Source of the DNA: a bacterium
Lineage (GTDB): Bacteria; Patescibacteriota; Microgenomatia; UBA1400; UBA12108
DNA length: 64,000 nucleotides
NCBI GenBank assembly: GCA_021788365.1
Contig: JAJYKS010000002.1
Location: forward strand, 32,521-96,520
Direction of reading: 5' to 3'
Position 1 is the first letter of the stretch; the number at the start of each line of letters is the position of its first letter. The translations under genes and the position numbers were made by a program. This document shows positions 46,156 to 61,827 of the stretch, one piece after another. The notes under the pieces were generated by a model. That model was not told the origin of the DNA, ran no database searches, and was given only the letters and a program-made list of their open reading frames with translations.

Positions 46156-46164
46156 TTCTCGAAG

Positions 46165-46203
46165 CGTAGATTGTAATATCTAGGACCTCAGTCGTGGTGA
46201 GTG
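46165..46203 (+). repeat. Direct repeat of the tRNA-His leader plus its first 7 nt (second copy at 46315-46353)
   Basis: GGACCTCAGTCGTGGTGAGTG is identical in both copies, preceded by similar TAATATC. Confidence 0.6.
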
Positions 46204-46314: not shown

Positions 46315-46345
46315 CTTAGGTTATAATATCCTGGACCTCAGTCGT

Positions 46346-46420
46346 GGTGAGTGTAGCTCAGCTGGTTAGAGCGCGTCCCTGTGGAGGATGAGGTCGCCGG
46401 TTCGATCCCGGTCACTCACC
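46346..46420 (+). tRNA. tRNA-His (anticodon GTG) with encoded G-1 and C73
   Basis: Acceptor GTGAGTG/CACTCAC, G-1, anticodon loop CTGTGGA. Confidence 0.85.
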
Positions 46421-48016: not shown

Positions 48017-48032
48017 ATACGACCAGCTTACA

Positions 48033-49620: not shown

Positions 49621-49818
49621 ACGTCCTCATGGCTGGTTTACGACTTGGCAGATATACGGCACGGTACAGGTTCACCAAATTGGTCCCAAGCTTTTCCGCA
49701 TCCTCATCCGACAGCTCCACCCCATACTCTTGGAGATATAACTTCTGAAAGGCAATAAGTGAATCTCTTGCTAACATACCTCCAAAATATATGGAGGCAC
49801 TTGATCAACCGAGATCAA

Positions 49819-51048
49819 CTATTGATCAACAACCGCGACGGAGCTATCCAAACTCTCCCGACCGCCTAGATAATCATGGTTAAAGCTAGCACTGTGCATG
49901 TTGTAGGTAAGAAATCTGACCACACCCAAGTCTCCGGCAATACGACTGACCAGAGCTCGTGCGGCGTCGTAGGGTACTCTCCCTGGATTTTTTACTTTCC
50001 CGACATCGACTACGTCCACCATCGAGCCTTTAATATCCTCAAATACAACATTTCCCTCGGGGTCGTCGTCAAGCGCCGCTAACAATATGCCCGCATTGTC
50101 TAGGTCGCGTTTAAACCGATAATCCTTGCCGTTGATCCTCAGGTAAACAAAGTTCTCATCTTTTTTCAAAGACCAGTGAACCCCGATAATTAGGTCGATA
50201 CCACCGGTAGGAGTAACCGGCGTTATACTCGAATGCGTATCTGGTTCTAGCTCTAGGTATTCGAGCGTAAATTGGTGTACCTTAGCTATGTAGTAACGAT
50301 AATCCACAGACTTAAACTCATGCGCCTGCTCTGACGGACCAAATTGCTCTCCCTTAATGATCTTCCTCATCTCTGCCTGCATCGACGACCAGCCCATCAG
50401 CTCAAAAAACTTATTTTTCTTGGCGAAATCGTCGTGGATCTTCCACTTGACGTCGTCGATCGCCCAAAACGCGGTTACGATCTTATCCCAGCTAAACCAT
50501 AGCCTGGTGATCTCGATAATCTTTAGACCAGTCATAATCTGGTCATACTTGGTATAGCTTGGAGAAAACGTCCAGGACGTGATCCGCCGCTCATTACTTA
50601 CTTCTCCATACCTTTGAACAAACTTGAGCTCCGCTTCATTGCCGTCCTCCACCATGGTCATGAGTGCGTAGGATAATTTGTCGTAAAGATCCTCGACATA
50701 GCCCCGAGAGGAGGTCATCCTTCCCTCTACGACATCGCGGAACTCGGCGAGATTTTTAGTCACAACCTTGTCCGTTATCCCAGAATACTTCACATGCGAG
50801 GCCACCTGTTTATAGATTTTCTGTATCTCGTCCACAGCTTTTTGCCACAGTTCATTGACTTCCTTGTACTCGGCGAGCTTTTGCTCCTGGATTGCCTTAA
50901 ACATGCCACCCAAATTTTCCTCTTGGTCAAAGACCCGGACATAATCGTATAGCCAGAGGAAAAAATGCTGCTCGCTATCCGCCGCCATTGCCAAGTCGTA
51001 GATGCGCACAAGCCGCTTGCGTAGTACCTCAACATTTGCCGTTGGCAT
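49819..51048 (-). CDS. Hypothetical protein (409 aa), island cargo
   Basis: Long ORF in a co-directional cluster; no recognisable domain. Confidence 0.4.
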   Translation of the reverse strand: MPTANVEVLRKRLVRIYDLAMAADSEQHFFLWLYDYVRVFDQEENLGGMFKAIQEQKLAEYKEVNELWQKAVDEIQKIYKQVASHVKYSGITDKVVTKNLAEFRDVVEGRMTSSRGYVEDLYDKLSYALMTMVEDGNEAELKFVQRYGEVSNERRITSWTFSPSYTKYDQIMTGLKIIEITRLWFSWDKIVTAFWAIDDVKWKIHDDFAKKNKFFELMGWSSMQAEMRKIIKGEQFGPSEQAHEFKSVDYRYYIAKVHQFTLEYLELEPDTHSSITPVTPTGGIDLIIGVHWSLKKDENFVYLRINGKDYRFKRDLDNAGILLAALDDDPEGNVVFEDIKGSMVDVVDVGKVKNPGRVPYDAARALVSRIAGDLGVVRFLTYNMHSASFNHDYLGGRESLDSSVAVVDQ

Positions 51049-51070
51049 ATACCCTATTTTACGCCGCGGC

Positions 51071-51424
51071 CTACATCGCCAAAGGGACTAGCTCTGTGGC
51101 TCCCGGGACGTCGGGGCTGGCGAAAATGTGATATGTGGTCGCATGGTTCGGATCGGTTCCAGGTTCCAAGACGAGAGCCTCGGCAGGGAAGCCATATTCA
51201 TTGAGGATTGCCAAAATATCGGTATCCGTAGCCTCCGGCGAAACGGAAACTTCTGTCATGGCTGTATCGACAATGTATCCCTCGCTTGTGGGGTGAAATA
51301 CCGGCTGCACATTGCGATGTGCCTGAAGAAGGTCAGGTTTCACGGGTCCAGGGAGAGCCGGAAATCCCTCTACCCACGGATCGGAGACATAGAGGTGTGA
51401 GGATAATTTGCAAGAATAGCTCAT
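51071..51424 (-). CDS. Hypothetical protein (117 aa)
   Basis: ORF; 4-nt overlap with the upstream gene. Confidence 0.3.
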   Translation of the reverse strand: MSYSCKLSSHLYVSDPWVEGFPALPGPVKPDLLQAHRNVQPVFHPTSEGYIVDTAMTEVSVSPEATDTDILAILNEYGFPAEALVLEPGTDPNHATTYHIFASPDVPGATELVPLAM

Positions 51425-53100
51425 ACTGACCCAGGACCTAACTGGGGTGTCTCAAGTCTTTTCTTGGCTGTTTCTTCGTCGGCGACATCCTTGGCCAGTT
51501 GTCTCTGTAGAAGCTCCGCTTGTTGCTGTGCTTGATGATCTTGAAAAATTGCTTGACCGGCCTGAATTGTTGCCCGACCGGCTTTTTTTGCAGCAGTGTA
51601 AAGATTATTGAGGGCATCCAGGGTTCTTTGCTTTGATGCAACGGCAGTGGTAAGGGCGATCATGTTTTCGGCATGTTTACCCATGCGCTCTTTTTCATCC
51701 AGGACTATTTTGGGCCGGATAAACATCTTGGCCAGTCCTGTTTCCTGCTTCTGCACAGTTTGCTGGCTTTCAGCAACGATTTTATTAGTTCTGCGAATAG
51801 TGTCAGCTAGATTGCCGAGCAGTGACATCGTGTCACGCGGATTGTTAACCATGATTTCGCCAATAATTTGGTTGCGTTCGAGTGAGTAAAAAATGATCTT
51901 ACCGCCAACGTTAAAGCCGGTAAGCCATTTGTAGAGAGAATTTTGCAGGAGCGCTCCGCCTTTTTTTCTGATCGTGTCAACTGCCGAAGGTGTACCGATC
52001 GACATAAGATAACCACCAGGAACAGCAGATTTGTTGGTGGTGAGGAGGGATAGTGGTAAAGGAAGGTCGTCCTGTTTTTTAGTGATGTCACGGATTACCA
52101 GGCTTGTATTGGTTAATCCCCAAACTCGATTACGATGAAGTTCCTCCTCATGGTCGGTGAGGACGATTTTGTTGGTGACCAGGTCGGTTACAAACATGGT
52201 CTCCGGTTCGGTTTGGAGGGCCAATTCATCGAGGGCAGTACCCATCGTCTTAAATTGTTCGAAAAGAGCATTAGCCTGAGATTGCTCGGCGATGTCACCG
52301 GCGGCGGCCAATACAGCCAAGTCCAGTTCTTTCATAAGTGTATCTTGAGGTTTACCCATTTTTTCCAACTGGAGTAGGTGTGCGGCCAAGGCCTTCTCCT
52401 CTGGAGTAAGCGGGTAGGCATGGTCGAGATGACCTTGCTTTACCGCCTTAGCCAGTTCTTCAGCTTTGGTGACGATGTCCTTCTCTAAATCAGTTAGCCG
52501 AGCTTGCCCTCGATTACTAAAAACAAAAGCTGGATTAATGTCCAAATATCTCTGCTTAATTTTACTGATGGCGGCGGCGATGGCTGGTGTGGAAGGAACT
52601 TCAAGATCGATATGAGTACCAAAATTCTTATTGATCAAATTTTCGCCTAGATCAAGCGCAGTCTTTTCTATCGTGCTGGCCGGGGGGATGAATAGCAGTC
52701 CATGCTGGAGGATTCCGGCTTTAGCTAGGCGCCAAGCCGCGTCGCCCACGGTCAAGGTTTCTTCTTCTCCGGCCTTGGTAGCGGCAGGTTTGGTGCTGGC
52801 CCAGGGGTGCCCGTCGCTAAGGTGTTTCCAGGCGTCATCGCTAGCCCTAACAATAGCGAGGGGATTGATACTTTGAGGATATTCAGCTGGAGGGGGCGTC
52901 GCTGCTGGTTTAGCAGGTGTTTGCTGACCAATAGCCCTCCATGCGTCTTCAGCAGAGATGCCATTGGCCCACGCTGCTGTGTTTATCGTAGGTGTTGGCG
53001 AAGCCGCACCTTGTTTTCCCAGTGCGCCCCACAGCGCCTCACCGGATTGTTGTGAGAGCCATAGTGCAGCGGGACTGGTGGTTTCTTGTACGGAGGCCAT
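51421..53100 (-). CDS. Hypothetical protein (559 aa) with N-terminal repeated (D/E)AW(K/R)xL motifs and a C-terminal coiled-coil
   Basis: 'EALWGAL', 'EDAWRAIG', 'DDAWKHL' and 'DAAWRLAK' repeats; Gln/Ala-rich C-terminus. Confidence 0.45.
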   Translation of the reverse strand: MASVQETTSPAALWLSQQSGEALWGALGKQGAASPTPTINTAAWANGISAEDAWRAIGQQTPAKPAATPPPAEYPQSINPLAIVRASDDAWKHLSDGHPWASTKPAATKAGEEETLTVGDAAWRLAKAGILQHGLLFIPPASTIEKTALDLGENLINKNFGTHIDLEVPSTPAIAAAISKIKQRYLDINPAFVFSNRGQARLTDLEKDIVTKAEELAKAVKQGHLDHAYPLTPEEKALAAHLLQLEKMGKPQDTLMKELDLAVLAAAGDIAEQSQANALFEQFKTMGTALDELALQTEPETMFVTDLVTNKIVLTDHEEELHRNRVWGLTNTSLVIRDITKKQDDLPLPLSLLTTNKSAVPGGYLMSIGTPSAVDTIRKKGGALLQNSLYKWLTGFNVGGKIIFYSLERNQIIGEIMVNNPRDTMSLLGNLADTIRRTNKIVAESQQTVQKQETGLAKMFIRPKIVLDEKERMGKHAENMIALTTAVASKQRTLDALNNLYTAAKKAGRATIQAGQAIFQDHQAQQQAELLQRQLAKDVADEETAKKRLETPQLGPGSV

Positions 53101-53105
53101 AATAT

Positions 53106-53522
53106 TTATTGAGTATTTTCCTTTACTTCGGTAACATCAGCGTCGATAACCTCGTCGTCTCCATCACCCTCATAAACCACTACATCCCCTCGCTTGTTTA
53201 CAGTTTTTTTTGCACGAGCCTTCTCGATAAATTTTTGGAAAATTCCCGGTTTAGCTGGCTGTTTGGGCTGGTCGGCGAGTTTCTTCCACTCCTCTTCACC
53301 GGTTCGAAGGGCAGCAGCGACGGCCTGCACGACGCCTACCCCTGCAGCATGAGCGAGGTTTTCTGGCAACTTCAACTCTTTGGTTACTTGTTGTGTTACC
53401 CCATCCAAAAACCCCGCTTGTTTAGGTGGAGGGGTGAGAGCCTGCCACGCAGATTCGCTGGCAGAGTCACTGTTACCTTGCTGCCCAGATAATGATTTCC
53501 AGGCTTCATCAGATGTAGTCAT
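53106..53522 (-). CDS. Hypothetical protein (138 aa) with the same AW-type repeats
   Basis: 'DEAWKSL', 'ESAWQAL' and 'EEEWKKL'. Confidence 0.4.
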   Translation of the reverse strand: MTTSDEAWKSLSGQQGNSDSASESAWQALTPPPKQAGFLDGVTQQVTKELKLPENLAHAAGVGVVQAVAAALRTGEEEWKKLADQPKQPAKPGIFQKFIEKARAKKTVNKRGDVVVYEGDGDDEVIDADVTEVKENTQ

Positions 53523-53593
53523 TTGTGCTCCTTTTTATGTATGTATTCTATCCTATGGGTCCACTCCTTGGGAAGAGTTCGGAGTTGTTCACG

Positions 53594-53639
53594 CGCCGCA
53601 CTTGGTGACCATTCTCATGGTCAAGAGCCAAGTGCGGCG
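53594..53639. promoter_or_regulatory. Nested palindrome (CGCCGCACTTGG [TGACCAT TCTC ATGGTCA] AGAG CCAAGTGCGGCG) between two island genes
   Basis: 10-bp outer stem and 7-bp inner stem seen in sequence; no U-tract. Confidence 0.35.
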
Positions 53640-53736
53640 GATTGTCGTGAACGATGTATTTGATTGTAATTTTACCGTGGTCGCCGGATAGGCGAGGGCG
53701 CGCGAGGCGGCCACGGTGCTGGCTAAATGGCCAGGT

Positions 53737-54393
53737 TTACGGGCAGGCACCAACCGTGACGGCAGCAAGATGGATCCAGGATCCAACAGGAAAGGATCCC
53801 GACGCCTCAGCAAGCTGGCCGCGCTGGCACACATTGTTGACACAGGTACTGTCAACGATAGATCCGATTTTAATCGTAGTGCCAGCGGGAATGTTTCCGA
53901 GCCCGTTTGGTCCTCCAGCTGTGGAGTTGGGTTCAGGGCGAACTGTGGCTCCATCAGACATGGTAACGCAGTATGGCTGCCCGCCAGTCGTGGACAGTAA
54001 TGACTGCTGCGAACCGGGGGTGGGAGAGACAAGACTCTGATGAACTGCTGTAGGCGGAACCTGGGAATTCGCGGCTGAGGGAATAGGGCTGGGTGTGCCA
54101 AGGATCACTCCTTCAGTGTTGACGACACCGGTGCTTATGCCCCAGATGAAAAACTTCCCTAGCCAAGGACCAACGAAGATGATGAAGAGCACCACCAGGA
54201 TCAAAGTAATGATCCCAATGACGAACAGGAATGCCTGATGCTTCTTCTTCGCGTATATCACTGGTCCCTCGGCGGATTCTTTCCCGGCCGTAGCCCAACG
54301 CCAGATGATCAAACCGGCAACAATGGCAAAAACCAATGCGCCGAACCAGTGCTGGCCAAGCCATGCGAGTAGTTGAACAATTGTGGTTGGCAT
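53737..54393 (-). CDS. Hypothetical membrane protein (2 TM plus Pro/Ser/Thr-rich and Cys-containing extracytoplasmic region)
   Basis: Two hydrophobic helices in the N-terminal half; C-terminal PST-rich segment with 4 Cys. Confidence 0.45.
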   Translation of the reverse strand: MPTTIVQLLAWLGQHWFGALVFAIVAGLIIWRWATAGKESAEGPVIYAKKKHQAFLFVIGIITLILVVLFIIFVGPWLGKFFIWGISTGVVNTEGVILGTPSPIPSAANSQVPPTAVHQSLVSPTPGSQQSLLSTTGGQPYCVTMSDGATVRPEPNSTAGGPNGLGNIPAGTTIKIGSIVDSTCVNNVCQRGQLAEASGSFPVGSWIHLAAVTVGACP

Positions 54394-54516
54394 GATATTT
54401 CTCCTTTTTGATTTGGAACTGAATTTTTTTGGATACGACTTGAATCTTGCGTTCTATTACTTTGTTACTTTGGACTATCAACCACCTCCTTTCGGGATGG
54501 GGTTTGTACACATTCG

Positions 54517-56262
54517 CTATGGTGCGGATGTGGGGGTGGGTGAATTTGCCGTTTGCTGGATTAGCTGTTGCCAGAGTGTCCAGACAAACTTTGCCTGACC
54601 TTCGTGCTGATTCCAGCACGATCCCTTGAGGGGATGGTAGGCAAAACGGTCAACGAACACGGCCTCGGAGGTTGCGCTAGGCAAACCCTGGTCGCTGATC
54701 TTCCTGCATGCAGCATCAGCTGCCGCGGGGATATTTGTGCGATCGGGCTGGTCTGGACCTACAGGCCAATAGTCATTCCACGTACCCGGCATGAACTGCC
54801 AGACACCTGCGGCTCCCACGGGGGAAACGGCGGTGTTGTTGTAAACGGAGCTTTCAGAGAAAGCCACCGCGACAACGAGGCGTGGATCACAGGTACCGTT
54901 CTTTTGGTACGCTGTGACAGCGGCATCCCAAACGTCTTGGGGTGCATAAAAACGCACCTCACTGCCATTCCAATAAGTAATCTGGAATTCCGGCAGAGCG
55001 CTGGGGACGCGGGCAACTGGAGCAGAGGCAACTGCGGGGGGTGGAGAATAGAGGCTGGGGATAAAGTACATCCCGGCCAAGACACCCGCGACCAAGAGAG
55101 TGACAACCACAAACGTCTGTCCATGGCGTTTTTTCTTGGTTTCGGCAGTTGGCTCGTAAGCTCCGCGGGCTTGGCGCAGGCGACCCAGGAGGGTCAAGCC
55201 AAGCCAAAAGGCCAGCATACCGTACACGAGGGCGTTAGGGACGCTCGACTCGCCGTTTAACCAGTCTCGGAAGAGTCTGGTGCGGTAAGCCAAAACATCC
55301 GGCCATTGCCACTGGGCGTAAAAGTATGCGCCAATAGTCATGACCACGCCGACGATGACGGCTACTTCAATGGCTCCTCGCCAGAGACTTTTCTTTCTGG
55401 CGACTTCGCCTTGGGTTCGAGGCTTGCCAATCCGCAAAATTACTTTTGGACCGGCAAATATGAGCCACAAGACGGCGAGGACCACCAACCCCCAAACGGC
55501 TGCTGTTTGAAAAGACTGATAGATCGCAGCAGCGTGCACCTCCTTTGGTGCGGGGTTTGTTTTTACGGTGGGGACAACTATGGTTCCAGGGATATTTGTT
55601 GGAACAATCCCAGGAACTTGCGGAAGCGGGTTTGTGGTGGGTCCACTTGTGACCGTGAGGGTGAGACTATCACCATCCACAGTCCAGTGGAGCACTACTG
55701 GTCCGTAGTCGTTGACGACGCGGACGTCCGCTCCGTTTTTTGTGCTGGGGTCAGCCGAGTTGCGGGATGTTGCTACCGCAATTGAGTATCGGCTATCGAC
55801 CCCGGGGATGGGTGTCGGGTGTGGTGAGTAACTATCGACAGTGAGACCGGCAGATGCCAGTGTCTCCGAGACCATCGATATTATGTCACACGCGCCGCCA
55901 CCTTCAGTAATCCCCCCTACTTCGGAGTAGCCCATACCGTACTCGACGGTATAGGGTCCGAAGACGCCGTTCAGCCAGGTGGTCCCTGACGGGATGGTCA
56001 CCTGACCCTCAAAGCTATCGGGGACGCTAAGATACGCGTCCTTAAACTTTGAACCTGGCGAAACACCCCAGAGTGTCATCAACATATTGAGACGGTAGTT
56101 AGTGTAGCTACCATAGTTAAGTCTCATGTTGAAGACCTTTGAGGTTGGGTTGAAGCTTATCGGCCGTATGGCCTGCACTGTCCCGGTGGGGGACAGAAGA
56201 GCGATTAGCGCAAGGAGAAGAACTCCCAGCGCCAAGGTTTGCTTGGTTTTCATGGAATTCAA
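54517..56262 (-). CDS. Secreted/membrane fusion protein: VanW-like N-terminal domain, TM helices, C-terminal lytic transglycosylase (SLT-like) domain
   Basis: Signal peptide; 'GGGACDIISMVSETLASAGL' (VanW-like GGG-C motif); 3-4 TM helices; C-terminal 'FSESSVYNN...GAAGVWQFMPGTWNDY' (SLT motif). Confidence 0.55.
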   Translation of the reverse strand: MNSMKTKQTLALGVLLLALIALLSPTGTVQAIRPISFNPTSKVFNMRLNYGSYTNYRLNMLMTLWGVSPGSKFKDAYLSVPDSFEGQVTIPSGTTWLNGVFGPYTVEYGMGYSEVGGITEGGGACDIISMVSETLASAGLTVDSYSPHPTPIPGVDSRYSIAVATSRNSADPSTKNGADVRVVNDYGPVVLHWTVDGDSLTLTVTSGPTTNPLPQVPGIVPTNIPGTIVVPTVKTNPAPKEVHAAAIYQSFQTAAVWGLVVLAVLWLIFAGPKVILRIGKPRTQGEVARKKSLWRGAIEVAVIVGVVMTIGAYFYAQWQWPDVLAYRTRLFRDWLNGESSVPNALVYGMLAFWLGLTLLGRLRQARGAYEPTAETKKKRHGQTFVVVTLLVAGVLAGMYFIPSLYSPPPAVASAPVARVPSALPEFQITYWNGSEVRFYAPQDVWDAAVTAYQKNGTCDPRLVVAVAFSESSVYNNTAVSPVGAAGVWQFMPGTWNDYWPVGPDQPDRTNIPAAADAACRKISDQGLPSATSEAVFVDRFAYHPLKGSCWNQHEGQAKFVWTLWQQLIQQTANSPTPTSAP

Positions 56263-56278
56263 CTCCTTTCTTTTAAAT

Positions 56279-56331
56279 TTGAAACCAGCAAGACAGAGGA
56301 CGAAAATTCATCCGCTATCAGCTGGTTTCAA
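56279..56331 (-). promoter_or_regulatory. 11-bp-stem hairpin (TTGAAACCAGC...GCTGGTTTCAA) in the 5' leader of the VanW-SLT gene, ~6 nt before its AAAGGAG RBS
   Basis: Seen in sequence. Confidence 0.3.
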
Positions 56332-56562
56332 TCGCGATAAAAGCTCTATATAGGCCGCAGTCAATTTTGTCGTATCCGTATAAAAGGAGAATATCTCTTT
56401 TATCAAATACAAACGTTCACTTTTTAAGGTGCGTGATCTCCACGACAACCAACTCGCTTCGAGTAGATGTCGCCAAAATCACGTATTCAGTGGGCAGTAA
56501 CCTAGCTAGGGCGCAACCAATCCCACGCGATGTGGTAGTAGATGCGTGTGTAGCTATTGCGT

Positions 56563-56668
56563 AAGATTATAGCCTATTAGTCAAGTTATAGGTCTGGAAA
56601 AAACTGACTGAACCCATGGTACTTAAAAAAGTGCACTAAGCACCATGGGTTCGACTTACTCAGTCAGT
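56563..56668. repeat. Repeat-family member R-a: TTATAGCC/TTATAGGT motif plus a 66-bp palindrome P1 (ACTGACTGA...GTGCAC...TCAGTCAGT)
   Basis: Shares the ACTGACTGA and TTATAGG cores with four other loci in 56.5-61.8 kb. Confidence 0.6.
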
Positions 56669-56698
56669 CGGCGAAACGAGCCACGTAACTATTTGGGA

Positions 56699-56929
56699 TT
56701 AATTCGCTCGCCGAATTAGGTGGAGATTGGTGGGACAGACCGAGGCTGTTTGACCAAATTGGTCGTCCACATCACGGTAGATGGTAACTTGCGTATTGCC
56801 ATCACGCAGTGATGAAACAACACCAATGGTCCCAGCCACGTGAAGTGGATGAGACTTACCAGAGAGCGTGATTTGCATGGCGACGACGTCGCCTAGTCGG
56901 GGAGCTTCCCCGTTTGGATAATTTTTCAT
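56699..56929 (-). CDS. Small hypothetical protein (76 aa)
   Basis: ORF only. Confidence 0.3.
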   Translation of the reverse strand: MKNYPNGEAPRLGDVVAMQITLSGKSHPLHVAGTIGVVSSLRDGNTQVTIYRDVDDQFGQTASVCPTNLHLIRRAN

Positions 56930-57043
56930 TTTTTATATCCTCTTGGTGAAATGTTGGATCAAATTTTGCGGCTTATTGAAGCCCGCGATAAACTACGAGC
57001 ACTCGTACGACGGGAAACTTACATTGTGTCTGGTGGAATCATT

Positions 57044-57311
57044 ATATTCTCCTTTTCAAAAATGGATTTCACGCTGGGGACTAATTTAATTCCCAAAGTG
57101 AAACCCATTTTGTTGGAACACTGACTGAGTGTTAAAGTGCAAGAAGCGATCGGGCAGACGCAAACGTCCACACATCGCCTATTACTCGACGGAGTTTACA
57201 CAACAAATGCGTATGAGTCAAGGTTATAGGCTAAAACCATAGGAAAAATGAGGACCGCTGGTCTGGTAGGTCGCGAAAATCTCTCGAACACGCTCCCGCA
57301 GGCTACCCAAA
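57044..57311. repeat. Repeat-family member R-b (~270 bp), about 80% similar over ~200 bp to R-d at 61625-61825; 3' ~90 bp also matches R-c
   Basis: Contains the hairpin AAAATGGATTTCAC...GTGAAACCCATTTT, the ACTGACTGAGTGTTAAAGTGCAA core, GAGTTTACACAACA, TTATAGGCTAAAACCATAGG and a GGTAGG...CTACCCAAAG element. Confidence 0.65.
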
Positions 57312-57347
57312 GATATAGTTTGATATATTAAAACAGAATGATTGGTT

Positions 57348-57461
57348 ATGGTAGCAGGTGAACTACAACGTGCTATAGAGGCCGCACAAAAGCTGGTAGA
57401 GAGCGGCGGAATGACCGCCGATGAGTTTGAGGAGCTCAAACGAAATCTCCTGGGGGATTAG
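57348..57461 (+). CDS. Possible 37-aa SHOCT-domain peptide
   Basis: 'MVAGELQRAIEAAQKLVESGGMTADEFEELKRNLLGD' fits the SHOCT consensus (GxIT.EEFE..K..LL); directly downstream of R-b. Confidence 0.3.
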   Translation: MVAGELQRAIEAAQKLVESGGMTADEFEELKRNLLGD

Positions 57462-57655
57462 ATTATACCTACCGAACTTCGCATCGAGGGTCAAGAGGCC
57501 AACGGCATCCCGTCCCACGCCAAACCCGCAGTTACGGAAGAAGAGACAACACCAGAGGAGCGCTGGGCGAAGAAAGGTAAAGAAACACCTGCCAGCGGGG
57601 CAGCCAATACCGCGATGAACCTAGAAATTATAGAGCGGTCACAAAAATAGAAAAA

Positions 57656-58039
57656 GTGATATGGATAATTCGTATGACATCACCTGACTATGTAAGGCTT
57701 GAACGGATGGCCACCTGGGCACGAGATACACTCCATCCTTATCTCCTAGAGCTCATCCCTCAGTATGCCTCCGCCACCTTGGCCATGAACATCCAGATGG
57801 CGGCGGGGGTAGTGTATGGGAGAGATGTGTACGGGGTTAATGCCGTGAGTGATCGTGAGCCGATAGCGGCAGATGATCTAGAGCAGTTTGCGGCCATGTG
57901 TGCAGAAGCAATCGCTCACTTCGACACCGATCACCTCTGGACTCCACGATATTCTGCCAAGAAATACAAAAGTAATGATCAGGTCCTGATCATCTCCCAC
58001 CACTTCCGCGCTAACCAGTACTCTCATGTCTGGAATTAA
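57656..58039 (+). CDS. Hypothetical protein (127 aa)
   Basis: ORF within the repeat-flanked cassette. Confidence 0.35.
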   Translation: MIWIIRMTSPDYVRLERMATWARDTLHPYLLELIPQYASATLAMNIQMAAGVVYGRDVYGVNAVSDREPIAADDLEQFAAMCAEAIAHFDTDHLWTPRYSAKKYKSNDQVLIISHHFRANQYSHVWN

Positions 58040-58074
58040 TCGCTCTAATCATTTATACTACGAACAGTAAAAAC

Positions 58075-58431
58075 ATGTTTGATCAAAAGAAGTACAACCA
58101 TTTAGGGTTCACCGAAAAAATAGCTTACCTTACAAACGCTGTAAGGGATGGCGAAATCGGAGAACCAGAAATTTCGAAAATTGTGAAGGATGATCGATCT
58201 GAGGAAGTTATTTTTAACGTCGTTTATCAAATATCTAATGGCCTGGATAGTGACCTTGAAAGTGGTAGCAGAGCCACGCAGGTAGCAGAACAACTAGCCA
58301 TGGCAAGAATGACAGAACTTAAATCCCATTTTCCTCACGGACCTATAGGCAGAGACGCCAAAGGGAAAATGGAATACGATACAACTGGAGACGCACTAAA
58401 ATCTCTCCAAGATAAAATGAATAGACGTTAG
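58075..58431 (+). CDS. Hypothetical protein (118 aa)
   Basis: ORF within the cassette. Confidence 0.35.
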   Translation: MFDQKKYNHLGFTEKIAYLTNAVRDGEIGEPEISKIVKDDRSEEVIFNVVYQISNGLDSDLESGSRATQVAEQLAMARMTELKSHFPHGPIGRDAKGKMEYDTTGDALKSLQDKMNRR

Positions 58432-58433
58432 CT

Positions 58434-58667
58434 ATGCCTAATCCAAGTGAAACACCACCCAAGGGAATCTCGGGAGAAGCACTTGCCGACTGGTGGCGTG
58501 AACACGGTGCCAACATGCAACACGTCGAGATACTTTCAGATGATGAGCGTATTTGCCCTCGATGTGGTGATGTTCAACCTTGTACTGGAACTGACGAATG
58601 TACGTCTTGTGGAGCATCGTTAAAAGGAGCGAAACGACGTCGGCGAAATCTCTTCCAGTCGCAGTAA
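58434..58667 (+). CDS. Small zinc-ribbon protein (77 aa), basic C-terminus
   Basis: CPRCG...CTSCG; 3-nt gap from the upstream ORF. Confidence 0.4.
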   Translation: MPNPSETPPKGISGEALADWWREHGANMQHVEILSDDERICPRCGDVQPCTGTDECTSCGASLKGAKRRRRNLFQSQ

Positions 58668-58684
58668 GTATTTAGTCTAGAACA

Positions 58685-58785
58685 AGCTATAGGCTGAAAC
58701 GATATGCAAATCGATGGCCTGTGATCTGGTAGGTAGCAAAGATCTCTCGAACGACCTCCCGCAAACTACCCAAAGCAATCAAATG
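58685..58785. repeat. Repeat-family member R-c (matches the 3' ~90 bp of R-b), directly upstream of the 58811 ORF
   Basis: Shares the conserved blocks TCTGGTAGGT, ATCTCTCGAAC, CTCCCGCA and CTACCCAAAG with R-b. Confidence 0.6.
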
Positions 58786-58810
58786 GCTAAATACTCGGGA
58801 GAGATTTTCT

Positions 58811-59185
58811 ATGTTGTCGGATAAAATGTGTAGCACCATTTCCCAAGACATACAAAACTACTGGGATACCCATATTTCAGAGCTCGATGCACAATTACAA
58901 GGGAAGGAGCGGGGCCATAAAATTGCCGACATCATAGACGAAAAAACAACTATGTATCTGAGCTCAAAATATGACAGTGCATACGAACGCAAGAAGTCGC
59001 CGGGAGGAGATCCCATGCCTCGCTCTATGGGCGACATTTGGATCAAAGATCAGGGGGTATATCATCCGGTGAACATTAAAACAGGAATAAAAGGATCAGA
59101 GGGGCAGCCAAATATGGTATCTATGCACAAACTACTAAACGCAATCCTCTCAACTCGATCGATTCCTATTATCTACTCATGGTAA
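58811..59185 (+). CDS. Hypothetical protein (124 aa); may be the N-terminal half of a frameshifted ~240-aa nuclease partnered with the downstream methyltransferase
   Basis: A 7-nt overlap and frame change with 59179..59532 next to an A-run; 'GDIWIKD...VNIKTG' is loosely PD-(D/E)xK-like. Speculative. Confidence 0.3.
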   Translation: MLSDKMCSTISQDIQNYWDTHISELDAQLQGKERGHKIADIIDEKTTMYLSSKYDSAYERKKSPGGDPMPRSMGDIWIKDQGVYHPVNIKTGIKGSEGQPNMVSMHKLLNAILSTRSIPIIYSW

Positions 59186-59532
59186 AGATCAAAGAAAAAT
59201 CAGTGACAGATAAAACAACCGCGAGCATTATATTTGTCGACATGTTAAACATTATTGACTACATTACCTACGACGCCGGCCCAGGTCAAATAATGCTCAA
59301 AGCAAAAGCATTCTTTGACAAAATAGATCGAGAAGGTGCAGCCTTCCAAAATGGGTCGACGATAAAAGAAAAAGTCGAGAAATTGGCAGCACTCATGAGA
59401 GACGGGGAATCGCGGCTAGTAAGCAATCGGAAGAAGCGACTTGAGGTAATTGAAAAAAGTATTACGTCATATTTAGACAATACCCCTTTTGTTGTGAGCG
59501 TAGACAATCAAGCAAGGTTCAATTTAGCATAA
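59179..59532 (+). CDS. Hypothetical protein (117 aa); possible C-terminal half of the same split gene
   Basis: Overlaps the upstream ORF in another frame; its stop overlaps the methyltransferase start. Confidence 0.3.
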   Translation: MVKIKEKSVTDKTTASIIFVDMLNIIDYITYDAGPGQIMLKAKAFFDKIDREGAAFQNGSTIKEKVEKLAALMRDGESRLVSNRKKRLEVIEKSITSYLDNTPFVVSVDNQARFNLA

Positions 59533-61166
59533 TGAGCATCGCGCGCAGAAATAGGGCCGACAAGCGTCAATTGGGTCAATTTTTAACACCAAATAGATTG
59601 TCGCGTAAAATTGTCGATTATGCTCGCCCCAAGATAACCGATTTGATTTTAGAGCCCTCATTCGGATCTGGTTCGTTTATAGAATCAATTCTTGATCATT
59701 TCCACGACAAGAATGTTAGTTACAAAAACGCGGCAAAAATGATTGCGGGGGTCGAGATAGACACGGCGCTCTACCAGCAAGCCCTACACACATTCCACGC
59801 CAAATACGGGCTGTCTGCAAAAGATTTCGCCGAGCTATCATGTGATGATTATTTTCGCTGGGGCTCTGATCAAGCAACACTCCTACATCCGGAGAAATAC
59901 TTTGCAAAAAACCTTGAAAAATATGATTTGGTCATAGGCAATCCACCGTTTGGGGGCACATTTGATAAACAAATAGAAGACCAACTAGACCGAATATATG
60001 GATTCCGACTCGGAGAAAAAATAAAAAAAGAAACGTACGCATTTTTCATTATTAAATCAATCGATCTACTAAAAGATCTCGGGCGTCTCGTCTTTATCTG
60101 CTCGGATACCTTCCTTACGATTAACACCATGAAAGGTCTCAGGAAAGTATTGATGGATACGGGCAGTGTTAGGATCCGTAGCCTCAAAGAATTCTCAGAC
60201 GAGACATCGCACCCCATGGTAATCATCGATTATCAAAAAGGACCAGTCGCAAGCACAGTATACGTCGACAACGACGAAATATCCGTAGCAGACATAAAGC
60301 AAACGCCAAACTACTCGTGGAAAATAAATAGTGAACTACTGAAATATTTCAACGGTAAACTATGCGGGGAGTACGTTGTAGCCACAAGTGGCATGACCGT
60401 CGGTAAAAACGAGTATTTTATAAAAAAGATAGGAAATAATAACACCATCGAAGAACGATACAAATACGAATTATTTCAGGACCCAATTACGCTCACCAAA
60501 GAGCTGCAAAAAGCTCGGCTAGGGAAGCTATCGGAAAAACGAAAGCAAGAGATACAGCTCCTCGAATCCAAAGGAGTGACAACAACCAATGTCAAAGTTT
60601 CGTTAAAAGCAAAACCCACAACCGTTCAGCTACCCAACAAAAATTACAAATACTACAACAAGGGCCAAACAAAAAGGTTATACGCCAACCCCAAATATGT
60701 AATTTACTGGAAGGACGCCGGCAAAGCTGTATACCTATTTAAATACAATGGCCCATGGTATTTGCACGGCGTGGGCGGGAAAAAATACTTTGAGAAAGAG
60801 GGAATAACCTGGCAATTGGTTGCAAACAAACTATATGTACGGTATCTGCCAAGTGGGTACATCCTGGATAGTGGGTCACCCGCCGCCTTCCTACGGCAGG
60901 GTATAAAGAAAGACGAACTATATTTTATCCTCGGTTGGTTGGCGACCGATATTGCAACCGATATATTGAAGAAAGTGATCAACCACACACGCAACATTCA
61001 AGGTAAAGACGTCGAAAGGATGCCGTATCCAACCTGGGTATCAGCCACCGACAAAAAGAGGGCTATCGCTATAGTTAAGAATGCTGTCGCAAACTTGATG
61101 AGTGGACAAAACACGGATACCGATCTCACCGTAGCAAAATTAAATTCATTATTCAGACAATCGTAG
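59532..61166 (+). CDS. N6-adenine DNA methyltransferase, gamma-class (Eco57I/TaqI-like) with C-terminal target-recognition region
   Basis: Motif I 'LEPSFGSGSF' and motif IV 'IGNPPFGG' in gamma order; 544 aa. Confidence 0.8.
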   Translation: MSIARRNRADKRQLGQFLTPNRLSRKIVDYARPKITDLILEPSFGSGSFIESILDHFHDKNVSYKNAAKMIAGVEIDTALYQQALHTFHAKYGLSAKDFAELSCDDYFRWGSDQATLLHPEKYFAKNLEKYDLVIGNPPFGGTFDKQIEDQLDRIYGFRLGEKIKKETYAFFIIKSIDLLKDLGRLVFICSDTFLTINTMKGLRKVLMDTGSVRIRSLKEFSDETSHPMVIIDYQKGPVASTVYVDNDEISVADIKQTPNYSWKINSELLKYFNGKLCGEYVVATSGMTVGKNEYFIKKIGNNNTIEERYKYELFQDPITLTKELQKARLGKLSEKRKQEIQLLESKGVTTTNVKVSLKAKPTTVQLPNKNYKYYNKGQTKRLYANPKYVIYWKDAGKAVYLFKYNGPWYLHGVGGKKYFEKEGITWQLVANKLYVRYLPSGYILDSGSPAAFLRQGIKKDELYFILGWLATDIATDILKKVINHTRNIQGKDVERMPYPTWVSATDKKRAIAIVKNAVANLMSGQNTDTDLTVAKLNSLFRQS

Positions 61167-61245
61167 TGAATGAACTGACTGAATCATGGTGCTTTGAGTG
61201 CACAAAGCACCATGATTCTTGACTCAGTCAGTTTTAGTATTCACC
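61165..61245. repeat. Palindrome P2 (~80 bp; GTGAAT-ACTGACTGA-ATCATGGTGC...GTGCAC...GCACCATGAT-TCAGTCAGT-ATTCAC), related to P1; directly after the methyltransferase stop
   Basis: Seen in sequence; shares the ACTGACTGA, GTGCAC and AGCACCATG blocks with P1. Confidence 0.6.
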
Positions 61246-61624
61246 ACCTTTGGCGAGGAAGAAATCCATGCTAGCTCCACTCGTGTCCGAATTGGTCGCG
61301 GTGTTTATTATGTTCCCCACGGCGCGTGCACCCTCCGGGGCAGCCTTTTCGCGAGCATGCACTGCCGCATCCTTGCCCACCATCAAAAACTTGGATGGAG
61401 GTAAATGAAGTTGGCAGGAAGTCCAGCTGCGCAACAGGCATTAGCAAGCTCTGCCCTTTGAGTGAAGTTACGATCTGAACGGACGCAGTTGTTGGGGTAC
61501 TTGATTGTGGTGCAGTGTTCATTCTTAACTACTCCTCTATTAAAATTTTTCTTGCATTTTGAGATTTGTAAAACATTGGAACTGTGGAACAAAAAACTAT
61601 ACATGGTACGGTGGTTTCATTTCT

Positions 61625-61825
61625 ATTATCTCCTCATAAAATGGATTTCGCGCTGGGGACTAGCAAATAATTCCCAAAGTGAAATCCATTTCGTAGGAGT
61701 ACTGACTGAGTGTTAAGGTGCAAAAAGAGATCGCAAAAGACGCAAACGCCTACCGATCTCCAGTTACGGGGTCGAGTTTACACAACAGATACGCATTAGT
61801 CAACAGTTATAGGTCATAATAGGTA
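61625..61825. repeat. Repeat-family member R-d (direct repeat partner of R-b)
   Basis: Hairpin AAAATGGATTTCGC...GTGAAATCCATTT; ACTGACTGAGTGTTAAGGTGCAA; GAGTTTACACAACA; TTATAGGTCATAATAGG. Confidence 0.65.
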
Positions 61826-61827
61826 GG

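What the first reader, a model, noticed from the sequence alone, without database searches (positions are those of the whole stretch)
56563..61825. Family of related structured repeats (ACTGACTGAGT core, two ~80-bp palindromes, ~200-bp direct repeats) bracketing a small-gene/methyltransferase cassette
At least five related loci occur within 5.3 kb: R-a/P1 (56563-56668), R-b (57044-57311), R-c (58685-58785), P2 (61165-61245) and R-d (61625-61825). Shared blocks are ACTGACTGA(G/A) (six occurrences including inverted ones), GTGCAC, GAGTTTACACAACA, TTATAGG(C/T) and a 14-bp-stem hairpin AAAATGGATTTCAC...GTGAAAyCCATTT. R-b and R-d are ~200-bp direct repeats flanking 57.3-61.6 kb. The region looks like a MITE-like or integron-like repeat system, or a set of structured non-coding RNAs, organising a gene cassette. 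Nothing in the sequence matches CRISPR, IS inverted repeats or known attC sites.
Basis: seen in the sequence. Interest (0 to 1): 0.7.

Follow-up and report, generated by a model that had tools for sequence, protein, structure and literature searches.

The report
Reused promoter-leader and terminator frames
The repeats are two copies of one small expression unit, a promoter with a folded RNA leader and a matching terminator hairpin around a short gene; related strains keep this frame but carry a different gene inside it, and everything sits in foreign DNA piled up next to a tRNA-His gene.

Summary
The repeats are real. ACTGACTGAR occurs 6 times, all within 56.6-61.7 kb, against 0.27 expected. 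They do not bracket a mobile methyltransferase cassette.

Read on the minus strand they form two paralogous units, about 78% identical:
- a sigma-70 promoter (TTGACT-17-TAAACT);
- a ~135-nt leader of two hairpins and an invariant linker, UUAACACUCAGUCAGU;
- a 7-codon upstream ORF (uORF), M-[IK]-P-P-x-x-x;
- a small orphan ORF (ORF76 or ORF83);
- a bulged terminator hairpin (P1 or P2) whose 5' arm is the exact complement of the linker motif.

Related strains settle the layout. Window 46423-58767 is a 12.3-kb integrative element inserted at the 3' end of tRNA-His. It carries module A, and R-c lies exactly at its right junction. The restriction-modification (R-M) genes and module B are older residents. 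In sister strains the module B frame is 93-95% conserved, but the coding sequence between the start codon and P2 is replaced by unrelated Cys-rich ORFs.

The closest analogues are phage morons and the T4-type promoter/stem-loop (PeSL) cassettes. No match was found in Rfam, phage, plasmid, IMG/VR or JGI data. The leader-terminator complementarity is unexplained.

The parts
46423..58767 (-). 12.3-kb integrative element inserted at the 3' end of tRNA-His (46347-46421). All its genes from 46412 to 56929 are on the minus strand. They are a large serine recombinase, a tyrosine integrase, an HTH_17 protein, five unknowns, an SLT-domain protein and module A. Four small plus-strand genes follow at 57342-58667.
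   Evidence: L092, L095 and L097 join window ...46422 directly to 58768... with shared core ACCCA.
56576..56602 (-). R-a: a truncated copy of the promoter-upstream box plus the -35 hexamer (CCTATAAC-TTGACT-AAT). On the minus strand it lies directly 3' of P1, so P1 + R-a is a terminator-then-promoter composite.
   Evidence: AGTCAA-N0-3-TTATAGG has 3 matches against 0 expected; sequence read; alignment.
56602..56668 (-). P1: a bulged hairpin with a 9-10 bp outer stem (ACUGACUGAGU / UUCAGUCAGU) and a 15-bp inner stem, followed by U6. It is the intrinsic terminator of module A.
   Evidence: Fold energy -35.8 kcal/mol, z -7.3. The minus strand is more stable than the plus strand (-34.0 vs -28.2) and has G.U pairs.
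56699..56929 (-). ORF76, the slot gene of module A. It is an orphan.
   Evidence: Only itself among 5.8 billion protein clusters. No Pfam, PHROG or PADLOC hit. Codon score +0.07, the best of six frames. AlphaFold2 pLDDT 47.6, all-beta.
57019..57042 (-). uORF A: a 7-codon ORF (MIPPDTM) 6 nt after the Shine-Dalgarno sequence AGGAG.
   Evidence: Five aligned copies keep the ATG, the Shine-Dalgarno sequence (SD), the 7-codon length and Pro-Pro at codons 3-4: MIPPDTM, MKPPYHV, MIPPYHI, MKPPYHI, MIPPSHI.
57055..57190 (-). Leader A (the core of R-b): a 19-bp 5' hairpin, a 27-nt linker holding the invariant UUAACACUCAGUCAGU, then a 22-bp hairpin followed by U5.
   Evidence: Fold energy -49.6 kcal/mol, z -4.9. 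Consensus structure. Covariance-model score 140 bits.
57193..57221 (-). Promoter A: TTGACT, 17 nt, TAAACT, preceded by the CCTATAAC box at 57222-57235.
   Evidence: Promoter scan. Window-wide regex search found this promoter form only at the two modules. Invariant in five copies.
57225..57312 (+). 88-nt box (the right part of R-b), 78% identical to R-c. It ends ...CTACCCAAAG, as R-c does. An extended -10 (TGATATATT, 57321-57329) for the SHOCT gene follows.
   Evidence: sequence read. Weak consensus fold with no compensatory pairs.
58683..58775 (+). R-c: the second copy of the 88-nt box plus a degenerate -35 remnant. Its last bases (ACCCA, 58768-58772) are the right junction (attR core) of the 12.3-kb element.
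   Evidence: Junction mapped against L092, L095 and L097.
58811..61166 (+). Type II restriction-modification genes that are not part of the repeat family. The REase is frameshifted here (124 + 117 aa) but intact at 239-240 aa in L092, L095 and L097. The Eco57I/N6_Mtase-type methyltransferase spans 59532-61166.
   Evidence: Pfam, PADLOC, frameshift near 59152, homologues.
61173..61233 (-). P2: the same bulged hairpin as P1, lying between the convergent MTase gene and ORF83. It can act as a two-way terminator (plus strand ...GUUUUAG; minus strand ...GUUCAUUC).
   Evidence: Fold z -7.9 on the minus strand and -7.1 on the plus strand. Compensatory changes in the inner stem among P1, P2 and the L095 copy.
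61271..61522 (-). ORF83, the slot gene of module B in this genome. It is an orphan of uncertain coding status. The swapped segment is 61236-61521.
   Evidence: Only itself among 1.84 billion representatives. Codon score -0.19. L095 and L107 carry unrelated ORFs between the same frames.
61597..61620 (-). uORF B: a 7-codon ORF (MKPPYHV) after the SD sequence GAGGAG.
61634..61772 (-). Leader B (the core of R-d), with the same architecture as leader A.
   Evidence: Fold energy -49.5 kcal/mol, z -5.5. Covariance-model score 163 bits.
61775..61819 (-). Promoter B (TTGACT-17-TAAACT, 61775-61803) plus the CCTATAAC box. It is divergent from the pfkB promoter (TGCTACAAT, about 61830-61838).
   Evidence: conserved in L095, L096 and L107.

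Best explanation
**What it is.** R and P are the two ends of a reusable expression frame, present twice as modules A and B.
- R is a strong sigma-70 promoter followed by a ~135-nt structured leader and a 7-codon Pro-Pro uORF.
- P is a long, bulged intrinsic-terminator hairpin.
- A short slot gene lies between them.

**Where the copies sit.** Module A heads the long minus-strand gene array of a 12.3-kb integrative element newly inserted at tRNA-His. Module B is an older copy at the far edge of the same tRNA-His/pfkB island, next to the R-M genes. R-a and R-c are truncated promoter-proximal copies. The 88-nt box lies at the right end of the integrated DNA, and R-c is the attR-side arm.

**How it works.**
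- Shown by sequence only: each frame has the signals to transcribe, translate and terminate whatever ORF sits in the slot.
- Shown by strain comparison: the frame persists at about the same divergence as the flanking genes, while the coding segment from the start codon to the outer arm of P is replaced wholesale.
- Inferred: replacement occurs by homologous recombination in the conserved frames, as with moron and PeSL cassettes.
- Inferred, weaker: the single-stranded linker ACUCAGUCAGU pairs with the terminator's 5' arm ACUGACUGAGU. That would separate the remaining inner hairpin from the U-tract and allow read-through. Translation of the uORF and an adjacent anti-SD (CUCC/UUCC) could modulate this.
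For: **Promoter.** TTGACT-17-TAAACT at both modules, invariant in five copies.

**Strand of function.**
- The 5' hairpin is far more stable on the minus strand in all five copies (-17 to -20.5 against -9.4 to -14.5 kcal/mol), with 2-4 G.U pairs.
- P1 gives -34.0 on the minus strand against -28.2 on the plus strand.
- Plus-strand ORFs crossing R are in different frames in the two copies.

**Structure.**
- Folding z-scores run from -4.9 to -7.9.
- 96.6% of cells are paired, against 41-51% when partners are slid, with 3 compensatory pairs in hairpin 1.
- The P inner stem shows compensatory U-A to C-G and A-U to C-G changes.

**uORF.** Conserved in five versions.

**Termination signal.** P1 is followed by U6.

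**Insertion history.** Three assemblies lack window 46423-58767 and join tRNA-His directly to the REase upstream region.

**Slot swap.**
- Window against L095: 93.0% identity up to 61231 and 94.0% from 61560, with nothing alignable in between.
- L107 aligns at 95.5% from 61522, the ORF83 start codon, onward.
- The sister strains carry a 78-aa signal-peptide/Cys-rich ORF, and L095 also a 47-aa Cys-rich ORF.

**Leader-terminator pairing.** Duplex energy is -22.7 to -25.0 kcal/mol with 11 Watson-Crick pairs. The arm's own 3' partner gives a U.G wobble at position 10 in all three P copies.

**Real sequence, not artefact.** The same arrangement occurs in three independent assemblies.

**Analogy.** PeSL cassettes are described in PMC2839356 and PMC4122927.
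Against: - There are no expression data. Promoter, terminator and uORF are sequence predictions.
- Covariation is not significant with five sequences: 70 of 500 shuffles do as well. Hairpin 2 is nearly invariant and is no more stable on the minus strand in the B-type copies.
- Only two modules were seen, in one species-level clade, so "reusable" rests on one swapped slot plus one paralogue.
- ORF76 and ORF83 are orphans with weak or negative coding scores.
- L092 and L097 lack P2 directly after the MTase gene, so the frame is not always kept.
- P2 and the L095 copy have poor U-tracts on the minus strand.
- The leader/terminator complementarity may be ancestry alone. The R core looks like a half-P with the inner stem deleted.
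- The leader lies ~400 nt from the terminator, which is far for a cis antiterminator.
Confidence: 0.6

Rival explanations
1. R encodes a free ~135-nt small RNA that ends at hairpin 2 plus its U-run. Its single-stranded seed UUAACACUCAGUCAGU acts in trans on the P hairpins of both modules, or on targets elsewhere in the genome. The uORF and slot ORF would then be read-through or separate products.
For: The layout of 5' hairpin, invariant single-stranded linker and long hairpin with U4-5 is that of a terminated small RNA. The seed gives 11 perfect pairs with the P 5' arm, duplex energy about -23 to -25 kcal/mol. The seed is the most conserved stretch between the 78%-diverged paralogues.
Against: Hairpin 2 has an A/U-rich base and only 4-5 U, so it is a weak terminator. 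A conserved SD and uORF follow it immediately, and the 5' UTR stays conserved up to the slot start codon, which argues for a continuous mRNA. No other target site exists in the 64-kb window.
Confidence: 0.15
2. This is a site-specific cassette system of the integron or MITE kind. P would be a folded recombination site like attC or a hairpin transposon end, with conserved outer arms. R would supply the promoter or attI side, and a recombinase would exchange the ORFs.
For: P has conserved arms, a variable inner stem kept by compensatory changes, and a conserved one-sided bulge. Homology between strains and between modules begins exactly at the outer arm. The ORF is replaced cleanly. Tyrosine and serine recombinases lie 7-10 kb away.
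Against: The P arms are ACTGACTGA/TCAGTCAGT, not RYYYAAC/GTTRRRY. No integron-integrase model hit was found; the tyrosine recombinase gives only weak Xer-like scores of up to 35 bits, and it sits inside a different, recently inserted element that sister strains with module B lack. There is no tandem array. Each ORF has its own promoter. The other boundary of the swap is the start codon, with no repeat there. There is no target-site duplication at P. There are only two copies, and none in IMG/VR, JGI, phage or plasmid data.
Confidence: 0.08
3. The repeats are passive leftovers. Related integrative elements were stacked one after another at the tRNA-His hotspot, and each left its right-end segment (88-nt box, promoter, leader, terminator) behind. 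The similarity would then be shared ancestry with no present function beyond ordinary promoters and terminators.
For: tRNA-His and pfkB are ~105 bp apart in a 59%-identical relative (L112), but 2.9-15.4 kb apart in this clade. R-c ends exactly at an insertion junction. R-b with the 88-nt box, R-c and R-d each lie at the right edge of a block of low-GC DNA. R-a and R-c are truncated copies.
Against: Conservation is uneven in a way that neutral decay does not predict. The linker and hairpin 2 are almost invariant, hairpin 1 changes by compensation, and the uORF keeps its length, SD and Pro-Pro in five versions. Among strains the frame diverges at about the same rate as the flanking genes, while the slot is replaced.
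Confidence: 0.12
4. ACTGACTGAGT and the TATAGG/AGTCAA boxes are DNA-level binding sites for a protein of the element, either arm-type sites of its integrase or excisionase, or operators of a repressor.
For: The motifs recur near element ends, and one promoter box is shared by four loci. The P arm and the P' arm both contain TCGAAC..CCTCC.
Against: Module B, with all its motifs, is present in strains that lack the element and its recombinases. The ACTGACTGAGT sites lie about 75 nt inside the transcribed leader and in a terminator, 2-3 kb from the att core. G.U asymmetry favours an RNA role.
Confidence: 0.05

Closest known systems
PeSL (promoter-early stem-loop) regulatory cassettes of T4-type phages (Arbiol et al. 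2010, PMC2839356; Comeau et al. 2014, PMC4122927)
   Same: Conserved sigma-70-type promoter and stem-loop terminator motifs frame small ORFan genes in hyperplastic regions. Insertions, deletions and replacements between close relatives are bounded by these motifs. On the minus strand, P1 is followed directly by the truncated promoter copy R-a, which is a terminator-then-promoter composite.
   Different: There are two copies here rather than dozens. The host is a bacterial chromosome and integrative element of a Patescibacteria-like genome, not a lytic phage. The promoter side carries a 135-nt structured leader and a conserved uORF, and the terminator arm is complementary to the leader. Mini-circles were not tested.
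Phage and prophage morons (an autonomous promoter-ORF-terminator unit added to a mobile element)
   Same: Module A is a self-contained promoter, small ORF and terminator unit inside an integrated element. It has lower G+C than the core genes, and the ORF has no homologues.
   Different: Morons are individually unrelated units. Here the two units share their non-coding frames and differ in their ORFs, and module B lies outside the recognisable element.
Integron gene cassettes and attC sites
   Same: An ORF is followed by an imperfect palindrome with conserved outer arms, a variable inner stem and unpaired bases on one side. ORF content varies between strains.
   Different: There is no IntI, no attI, no R''/R' consensus and no array. 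Each ORF has its own promoter and leader, and one boundary of the swap is a start codon.
Long-range 5'-3' mRNA pairing systems (hok mRNA tac/fbi fold-back; icaR 5'UTR-3'UTR pairing in Staphylococcus aureus). Recalled from general knowledge, not tested here.
   Same: A 5' leader segment is complementary to a 3'-terminal element of the same mRNA. As with mok and hok, a short upstream ORF precedes the main ORF.
   Different: No antisense promoter or Sok-like RNA was found. ORF76 is not a hydrophobic toxin. The 3' partner here is the outer arm of the terminator.
Proline-codon leader ORFs (mgtL and mgtP of Salmonella mgtA/mgtCBR). Recalled from general knowledge.
   Same: A very short leader ORF has conserved consecutive proline codons, a possible sensor of ribosome pausing.
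   Different: The uORF here lies after the terminator-like hairpin rather than before it. No alternative pairing linked to it was demonstrated.

Membership tests
PeSL-type regulatory cassette | A sigma-70-like promoter combined with a stem-loop terminator as a conserved composite motif | tested here: met
   Promoter TTGACT-17-TAAACT. P hairpins fold with z about -7, and P1 is followed by U6. P1 is followed within 5 nt by the promoter-box copy R-a. That adjacent copy is truncated, and the full promoter lies at the other end of the ORF.
PeSL-type regulatory cassette | Many copies clustered in hyperplastic regions of the genome | tested here: not met
   Two full copies and two truncated ones in 64 kb. 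No further copies in flanking DNA or in the other loci scanned with the covariance model. The rest of the genome could not be read.
PeSL-type regulatory cassette | Indels and replacements of small ORFan genes between close relatives are bounded by the motifs | tested here: met
   Window against L095, L096 and L107: the frames are 93-95% identical, and the segment 61236-61521 is replaced by unrelated ORFs.
PeSL-type regulatory cassette | Formation of mini-circles by recombination between copies | not testable with these tools
   This needs reads or PCR across a module A/B hybrid junction.
Integron cassette / attC | An IntI-type tyrosine recombinase next to attI and the Pc promoter | tested here: not met
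   The only tyrosine recombinase (48033-49175) gives weak Xer-like NCBIfam scores of up to 35 bits and no integron-integrase hit. It lies inside an element absent from strains that have module B.
Integron cassette / attC | attC with R'' RYYYAAC and R' GTTRRRY core sites | tested here: not met
   The outer arms are ACTGACTGA(A/G) and (C/T)TCAGTCAGT.
Integron cassette / attC | A tandem array of promoterless ORF-attC cassettes | tested here: not met
   There is one ORF slot per P. In the window modules and in L095 each slot has its own promoter and leader.
MITE / small palindromic repeat element | Terminal inverted repeats, target-site duplication and multiple dispersed copies | tested here: not met
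   Inverted arms are present, but no duplication flanks P1 or P2. There are two copies, both in the island. There are no copies elsewhere.
Rfam RNA families | A match to any curated covariance model | tested here: not met
   No hit in 56.2-61.9 kb at gathering score. At E up to 5 there was only one chance snoRNA hit, at 58538.
Rho-independent terminator | A stable hairpin immediately followed by a U-rich tract | tested here: met
   P1 minus strand: -34 to -36 kcal/mol, then UUUUUU. P2 plus strand: UUUUAG. P2 and the L095 copy on the minus strand: UUCAUUC, which is weak.
Integrative element at a tRNA gene (large serine recombinase type) | An occupied site against an empty site in relatives, a recombinase at one end, and a short shared core | tested here: met
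   L092, L095 and L097 are empty sites. The core is ACCCA. The serine recombinase gene abuts attL. Which of the two recombinases acts was not determined.
tRNA-derived att repeat (for the 88-nt box) | Significant similarity of the repeat to the target tRNA | tested here: not met
   Local alignment to tRNA-His scores no better than shuffles (609-1429 of 2000 do as well). No tRNA model hit. Only the last ~14 nt resemble the tRNA 3' end.

The most novel reading that the evidence does not exclude
The frame is an undescribed RNA switch coupled to a plug-in slot for new genes. The invariant leader segment ACUCAGUCAGU, in cis or as a terminated small RNA, captures the 5' outer arm of the P terminator. 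That leaves the inner hairpin about 9 nt from the U-tract and lets RNA polymerase read through, into the transfer-like genes of the integrative element for module A. The Pro-Pro uORF and the anti-SD next to the motif set how often this happens. The same conserved frame, with stop codons in two or three frames built into the terminator arm, lets unrelated ORFs be dropped in and expressed.
Probability: 0.15. Interest if true: 0.7.

Novelty: new variant of a known kind. Interest (0 to 1): 0.45.

Why it matters
Candidate-phyla-radiation bacteria have tiny genomes, and almost nothing is known about how they regulate genes or acquire new ones. This locus shows, from strain-level evidence, a fixed promoter-leader/terminator frame whose coding insert is exchanged at the start codon. 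It sits beside a tRNA-His integration hotspot and a freshly inserted recombinase-bearing element.

If the frame is a general device, it would explain how ORFan genes become expressed immediately on arrival. It would also give a handle (a covariance model plus the P motif) for finding such slots in other genomes. If the leader-terminator pairing is real, it would be a new cis-regulatory RNA with a very short proline uORF. If not, the locus is still a clean natural example of moron/PeSL-like shuffling outside phages.

Tried and rejected
**Searches that found nothing**
- Pattern scans of IMG/VR for the palindrome, the hairpin-plus-motif and the 16-nt linker gave only chance hits with no wider similarity.
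- The one JGI metagenome scan (TTAACACTCAGTCAGT-N5-20-AATGG) gave one unrelated hit.
The best relatives are only 38-45% identical (Anaerolineae, Patescibacteria) and the source genome is not in that collection, so it gave no synteny information.
- Covariance model R1 found no further copies. It was run over the window with filters off, over 86 loci with default filters, and over 6 further loci with filters off.
- Rfam gave no match at gathering score or at E up to 5.
- blastn of both modules against the phage collection, and of module B against the plasmid collection, gave no match.
- Relatives of the element's 559-aa and SLT proteins in IMG/VR: none useful.
- A paper search for the sister-genome accession found nothing.

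**Proteins**
- Pfam, PHROGs, NCBIfam and PADLOC searches of the slot ORFs and the element's unknown proteins gave nothing.
- AlphaFold2 on ORF76 gave pLDDT 47.6, too poor for a fold search.

**Ideas rejected**
- The 88-nt box as a tRNA-His pseudogene: alignment is no better than shuffles.
- A search for tRNA-His 3'-end repeats as classical att sites found none longer than the ACCCA core.
- The 88-nt box as a structured RNA: weak consensus fold and no compensatory pairs on either strand.
- Coding conservation across R on the plus strand: the two copies are in different frames.

Full report
**1.

ACTGACTGAR occurs six times in the 64-kb window, all between 56603 and 61710. The expectation is 0.27, and none of 100 shuffles reaches six.

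A self-comparison gives three similarities:
- R-b vs R-d: 78.5% over 205 nt (57032-57230 vs 61610-61813).
- P1 vs P2: 77.6% over 67 nt.
- 57225-57312 vs R-c (58688-58775): 78% over 88 nt.

AGTCAA-N0-3-TTATAGG occurs at 56579, 57216 and 61798, with none expected. Nothing in the region reaches any Rfam family, at gathering score or at E up to 5.

**2. Anatomy**

Aligning 56540-57330 with 61110-61850 shows that the repeated thing is a ~640-bp module present twice, 4.57 kb apart, and that it reads on the minus strand. In order, each module contains:
- A CCTATAAC box and a sigma-70 promoter, TTGACT-17-TAAACT (57221-57193 and 61803-61775). In a window-wide regex search this TTGACT-17-TAAACT form turned up only at the two modules.
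- A ~135-nt leader. It has a 19-bp 5' hairpin, a 27-nt linker containing UUAACACUCAGUCAGU, and a 22-bp hairpin followed by U4-5. Fold energies are -49.6 and -49.5 kcal/mol, z -4.9 and -5.5.
- A good Shine-Dalgarno sequence and a 7-codon ORF (MIPPDTM or MKPPYHV).
- About 100 nt, a second Shine-Dalgarno sequence, and a small ORF (ORF76 at 56929-56699; ORF83 at 61522-61271). The two ORFs are not alignable with each other.
- The palindrome. On the minus strand it is a bulged hairpin with outer stem ACUGACUGAGU/UUCAGUCAGU and a 15-16-bp inner stem (z -7.3 and -7.9). P1 is followed by UUUUUU.

Plus-strand ORFs that cross R are in different frames in the two copies, so R is non-coding.

Two results favour RNA function on the minus strand:
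- The 5' hairpin is much more stable on the minus strand in every copy (-17 to -20.5 against -9.4 to -14.5 kcal/mol) and uses G.U pairs.
- P1 behaves the same way (-34.0 against -28.2).

Hairpin 2 shows no such bias.

**3. Related strains decide the layout**

ORF76 and ORF83 have no homologues in 5.8 billion clusters or 1.84 billion representatives. The methyltransferase and pfkB proteins, however, led to sister assemblies:
- L092 and L108 (ENA ERZ27237541).
- L096 and L097 (ENA ERZ27237587).
- L107 (ENA ERZ27237563).
- L095 (NCBI GCA_021839925.1).

L092, L097 and L095 align to the window up to 46422, the last bases of tRNA-His, and resume at 58768. The four junction sequences are:
- attB: ...GGTCACTCACCCA|AAGCAATC
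- attL: ...CACTCACCCA|TTACAGG
- attR: ...GCAAACTACCCA|AAGCAATC
- shared core: ACCCA

So window 46423-58767 is a 12.3-kb insertion. It carries a large serine recombinase that abuts attL, a tyrosine integrase, an HTH_17 protein, five unknown proteins and an SLT-domain protein, all on the minus strand. It also carries module A, four small plus-strand genes, and R-c exactly at its right end.

The REase and MTase genes lie outside this element and occupy the same position in the strains that lack it. This refutes the idea that R-b and R-d bracket a mobile methyltransferase cassette.

In a more distant relative (L112, pfkB 59% identical), tRNA-His is ~105 bp from pfkB. The whole of 46.4-61.8 kb, which has low G+C from 56 kb onward, is therefore DNA accumulated at a tRNA-His hotspot.

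**4. The slot is swapped inside a conserved frame**

L095 has a P2-like palindrome directly after the MTase stop codon (3593-3654) and an R-d-like leader (4126-4328) upstream of pfkB.

- Flanks: 93.0% identical to the window up to 61231, and 94.0% from 61560 onward.
- In between: nothing aligns.
- L107 and L108: aligned at 95.5-95.7% from 61522, the ORF83 start codon, onward.

In place of ORF83, L095, L096 and L107 encode a 78-aa protein. It has a signal or anchor helix and a Cys/His-rich tail (C-x2-KC-x2-CGW-x-C-x2-DANH...HHCSNP). L095 also has a 47-aa Cys-rich ORF.

The exchanged unit is thus the coding segment from the start codon to the outer arm of P. The promoter, leader, uORF, spacer, Shine-Dalgarno sequence and terminator stay, diverging about as fast as the flanking genes.

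L092 and L097 differ again. There the MTase stop is followed at once by a 136-aa minus-strand gene with no P2.

With five leader sequences:
- The uORF keeps its ATG, Shine-Dalgarno sequence, seven-codon length and Pro-Pro in all versions (MIPPDTM, MKPPYHV, MIPPYHI, MKPPYHI, MIPPSHI).
- The 16-nt linker is invariant.

Structure support is good thermodynamically but weak by covariation:
- 96.6% of cells pair, against 41-51% for slid partners.
- Three compensatory pairs occur, all in hairpin 1, and 70 of 500 shuffles do as well.
- The P inner stem shows compensatory changes among P1, P2 and the L095 copy.

**5. The truncated copies**

R-a (56576-56602) repeats only the promoter-upstream box, the -35 hexamer and GGAAAAA. 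On the minus strand it lies immediately after P1. As a result:
- P1 + R-a forms a terminator-then-promoter composite.
- The body of module A (56603-57214) is flanked by a ~26-35-nt direct repeat.

This is what integration of a circular module by homologous recombination would leave. That reading is an inference.

R-c repeats the 88-nt box and a degenerate -35 remnant. Both truncated copies end right after ...GACTAAT.

The 88-nt box is not tRNA-like: alignment to tRNA-His is no better than shuffles. It has no convincing RNA fold. It sits just upstream of -10-like elements for the SHOCT gene and the REase gene (read). I read it as the right-end arm of integrated DNA, possibly also used as an upstream promoter region.

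**6. Mechanism**

The following is shown, by sequence and comparison only:
- Two paralogous units each have a promoter, a structured leader, a uORF, a slot ORF and a terminator.
- The frame is conserved while its insert is replaced.
- Module A belongs to a newly inserted element, and module B to older island DNA.

The following is inferred:
- The frames act as insulated expression units.
- The conserved non-coding ends serve as homology arms for exchange.

These are the properties described for T4-type PeSL cassettes, where promoter plus stem-loop motifs bound indels and replacements of ORFan genes (PMC2839356, PMC4122927). They also fit phage morons.

The shared 11-mer remains unexplained. 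The leader's ACUCAGUCAGU makes 11 Watson-Crick pairs with the terminator's 5' arm, with a duplex energy of -22.7 to -25.0 kcal/mol. The arm's own 3' partner gives a U.G wobble at position 10 in all three P copies.

If the leader captured that arm, the remaining inner hairpin would end about 9 nt from the U-tract, and termination should weaken. For module A, that would let transcription continue into the SLT gene and the rest of the element.

An anti-SD (CUCC or UUCC) lies next to the motif and can pair with the uORF Shine-Dalgarno sequence. I give this pairing model about 0.25.

The alternative is ancestry. The R core looks like a half-P with the inner stem deleted: ACTGACTGA-gtg-TTAAAGTGCAA against ACTGACTGA-acccatggtac-TTAAAAAAGTGCAC.

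**7. Comparison and novelty**

This is not a member of any Rfam family, not an integron, and not a MITE:
- Integron: no IntI, no R''/R' core sites, no array.
- MITE: no target-site duplication, and only two clustered copies.

It works most like PeSL or moron cassettes but fails the many-copies criterion. It also adds a long structured leader, a conserved Pro-Pro uORF, and leader-terminator complementarity.

No copy was found in any of these searches:
- IMG/VR, by pattern scans.
- JGI metagenomes, by one pattern scan.
- GenBank phages, by blastn of both modules.
- PLSDB plasmids, by blastn of module B.
- The pfkB neighbourhoods of 80 Chloroflexota or Patescibacteria genomes, by the covariance model.

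The best named pfkB homologues, at 50-59% identity, are Patescibacteria (Woesebacteria, Saccharimonadales). The host is therefore probably a candidate-phyla-radiation bacterium.

Verdict: a real, lineage-specific set of regulatory repeats. It is a new variant of a known kind and of moderate interest. One testable oddity remains, the leader-terminator pairing with its uORF.

Noticed in passing
window 46154-46206 vs 46304-46356: A 53-nt direct repeat (87% identity) duplicates the tRNA-His promoter (TATAAT region) and the first 13 nt of tRNA-His, 150 bp upstream of the real gene. It is also present in L092, L095 and L097. It may be a decayed tRNA start or a remnant of an older rearrangement.
   Followed up: partly
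window 58811-59532 (about 59152): The putative restriction endonuclease upstream of the methyltransferase is split into 124-aa and 117-aa ORFs by a 1-nt deletion in the window genome. It is intact (239-240 aa) in L092, L095 and L097, the strains without the 12.3-kb insertion, which lies 40 nt upstream of this gene's start codon.
   Followed up: partly
window 46412-48016 and 46347-46421: The large serine recombinase ORF ends at 46412, inside the 3' end of tRNA-His. Its last codons and stop codon therefore lie across attL in host-derived sequence.
   Followed up: no
window 43077-43465 vs L097 5992-6289: The tRNA-Arg/Leu/Pro segment is inverted in the 99%-identical strain L097 relative to the window. 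Part of it is only 82% identical (tRNA orientations).
   Followed up: no
window 56279-56331: An 11-bp inverted repeat, TTGAAACCAGC ... GCTGGTTTCAA, encloses 31 nt in the 5' untranslated region just upstream of the Shine-Dalgarno sequence of the 581-aa SLT-domain gene. It is a possible translational or stability element.
   Followed up: no
L112 2688-2868; window 46421-61846: In a 59%-identical pfkB relative, tRNA-His lies ~105 bp from pfkB, with a Fic gene on the other side. In the window clade, 2.9 kb (L095) to 15.4 kb (window) of island DNA separates them. This is an integration hotspot.
   Followed up: partly
L094 19110-20792 (about 9 kb right of pfkB, beyond the window end): A second large serine recombinase (560 aa; Resolvase, Recombinase and Zn_ribbon_recom domains) suggests another integrated element nearby.
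   Followed up: no
L095 3660-4043; L096 1-225; L107 1-234: The slot ORFs of the sister strains are small secreted or anchored Cys/His-rich proteins (C-x2-KC-x2-CGW-x-C-x2-DANH...HHCSNP). L095 also has a 47-aa paralogue-like peptide. None hit Pfam, NCBIfam or PADLOC.
   Followed up: partly
window 56656-56668 (-), 57120-57135 (+), 61701-61716 (+); L095 P: The shared motif carries stop codons in all three frames. ACTGACTGAGTAA/TAG lies on the minus strand at the P1 and L095 arms, and ACTGACTGAGTGTTAA on the plus strand of every R copy. P2 covers two frames. It could act as a frame-independent translational stop at the slot edge, or it may be a by-product of the (CTGA)2 repeat.
   Followed up: no
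window 46478-46500 and 58743-58760: Both arms of the reconstructed attP contain TCGAAC..CCTCC in the same orientation (P arm CTCTCGAACGACCTCC; P' arm GAGAGGTTCGAACCTCC). These are possible arm-type recombinase sites.
   Followed up: no
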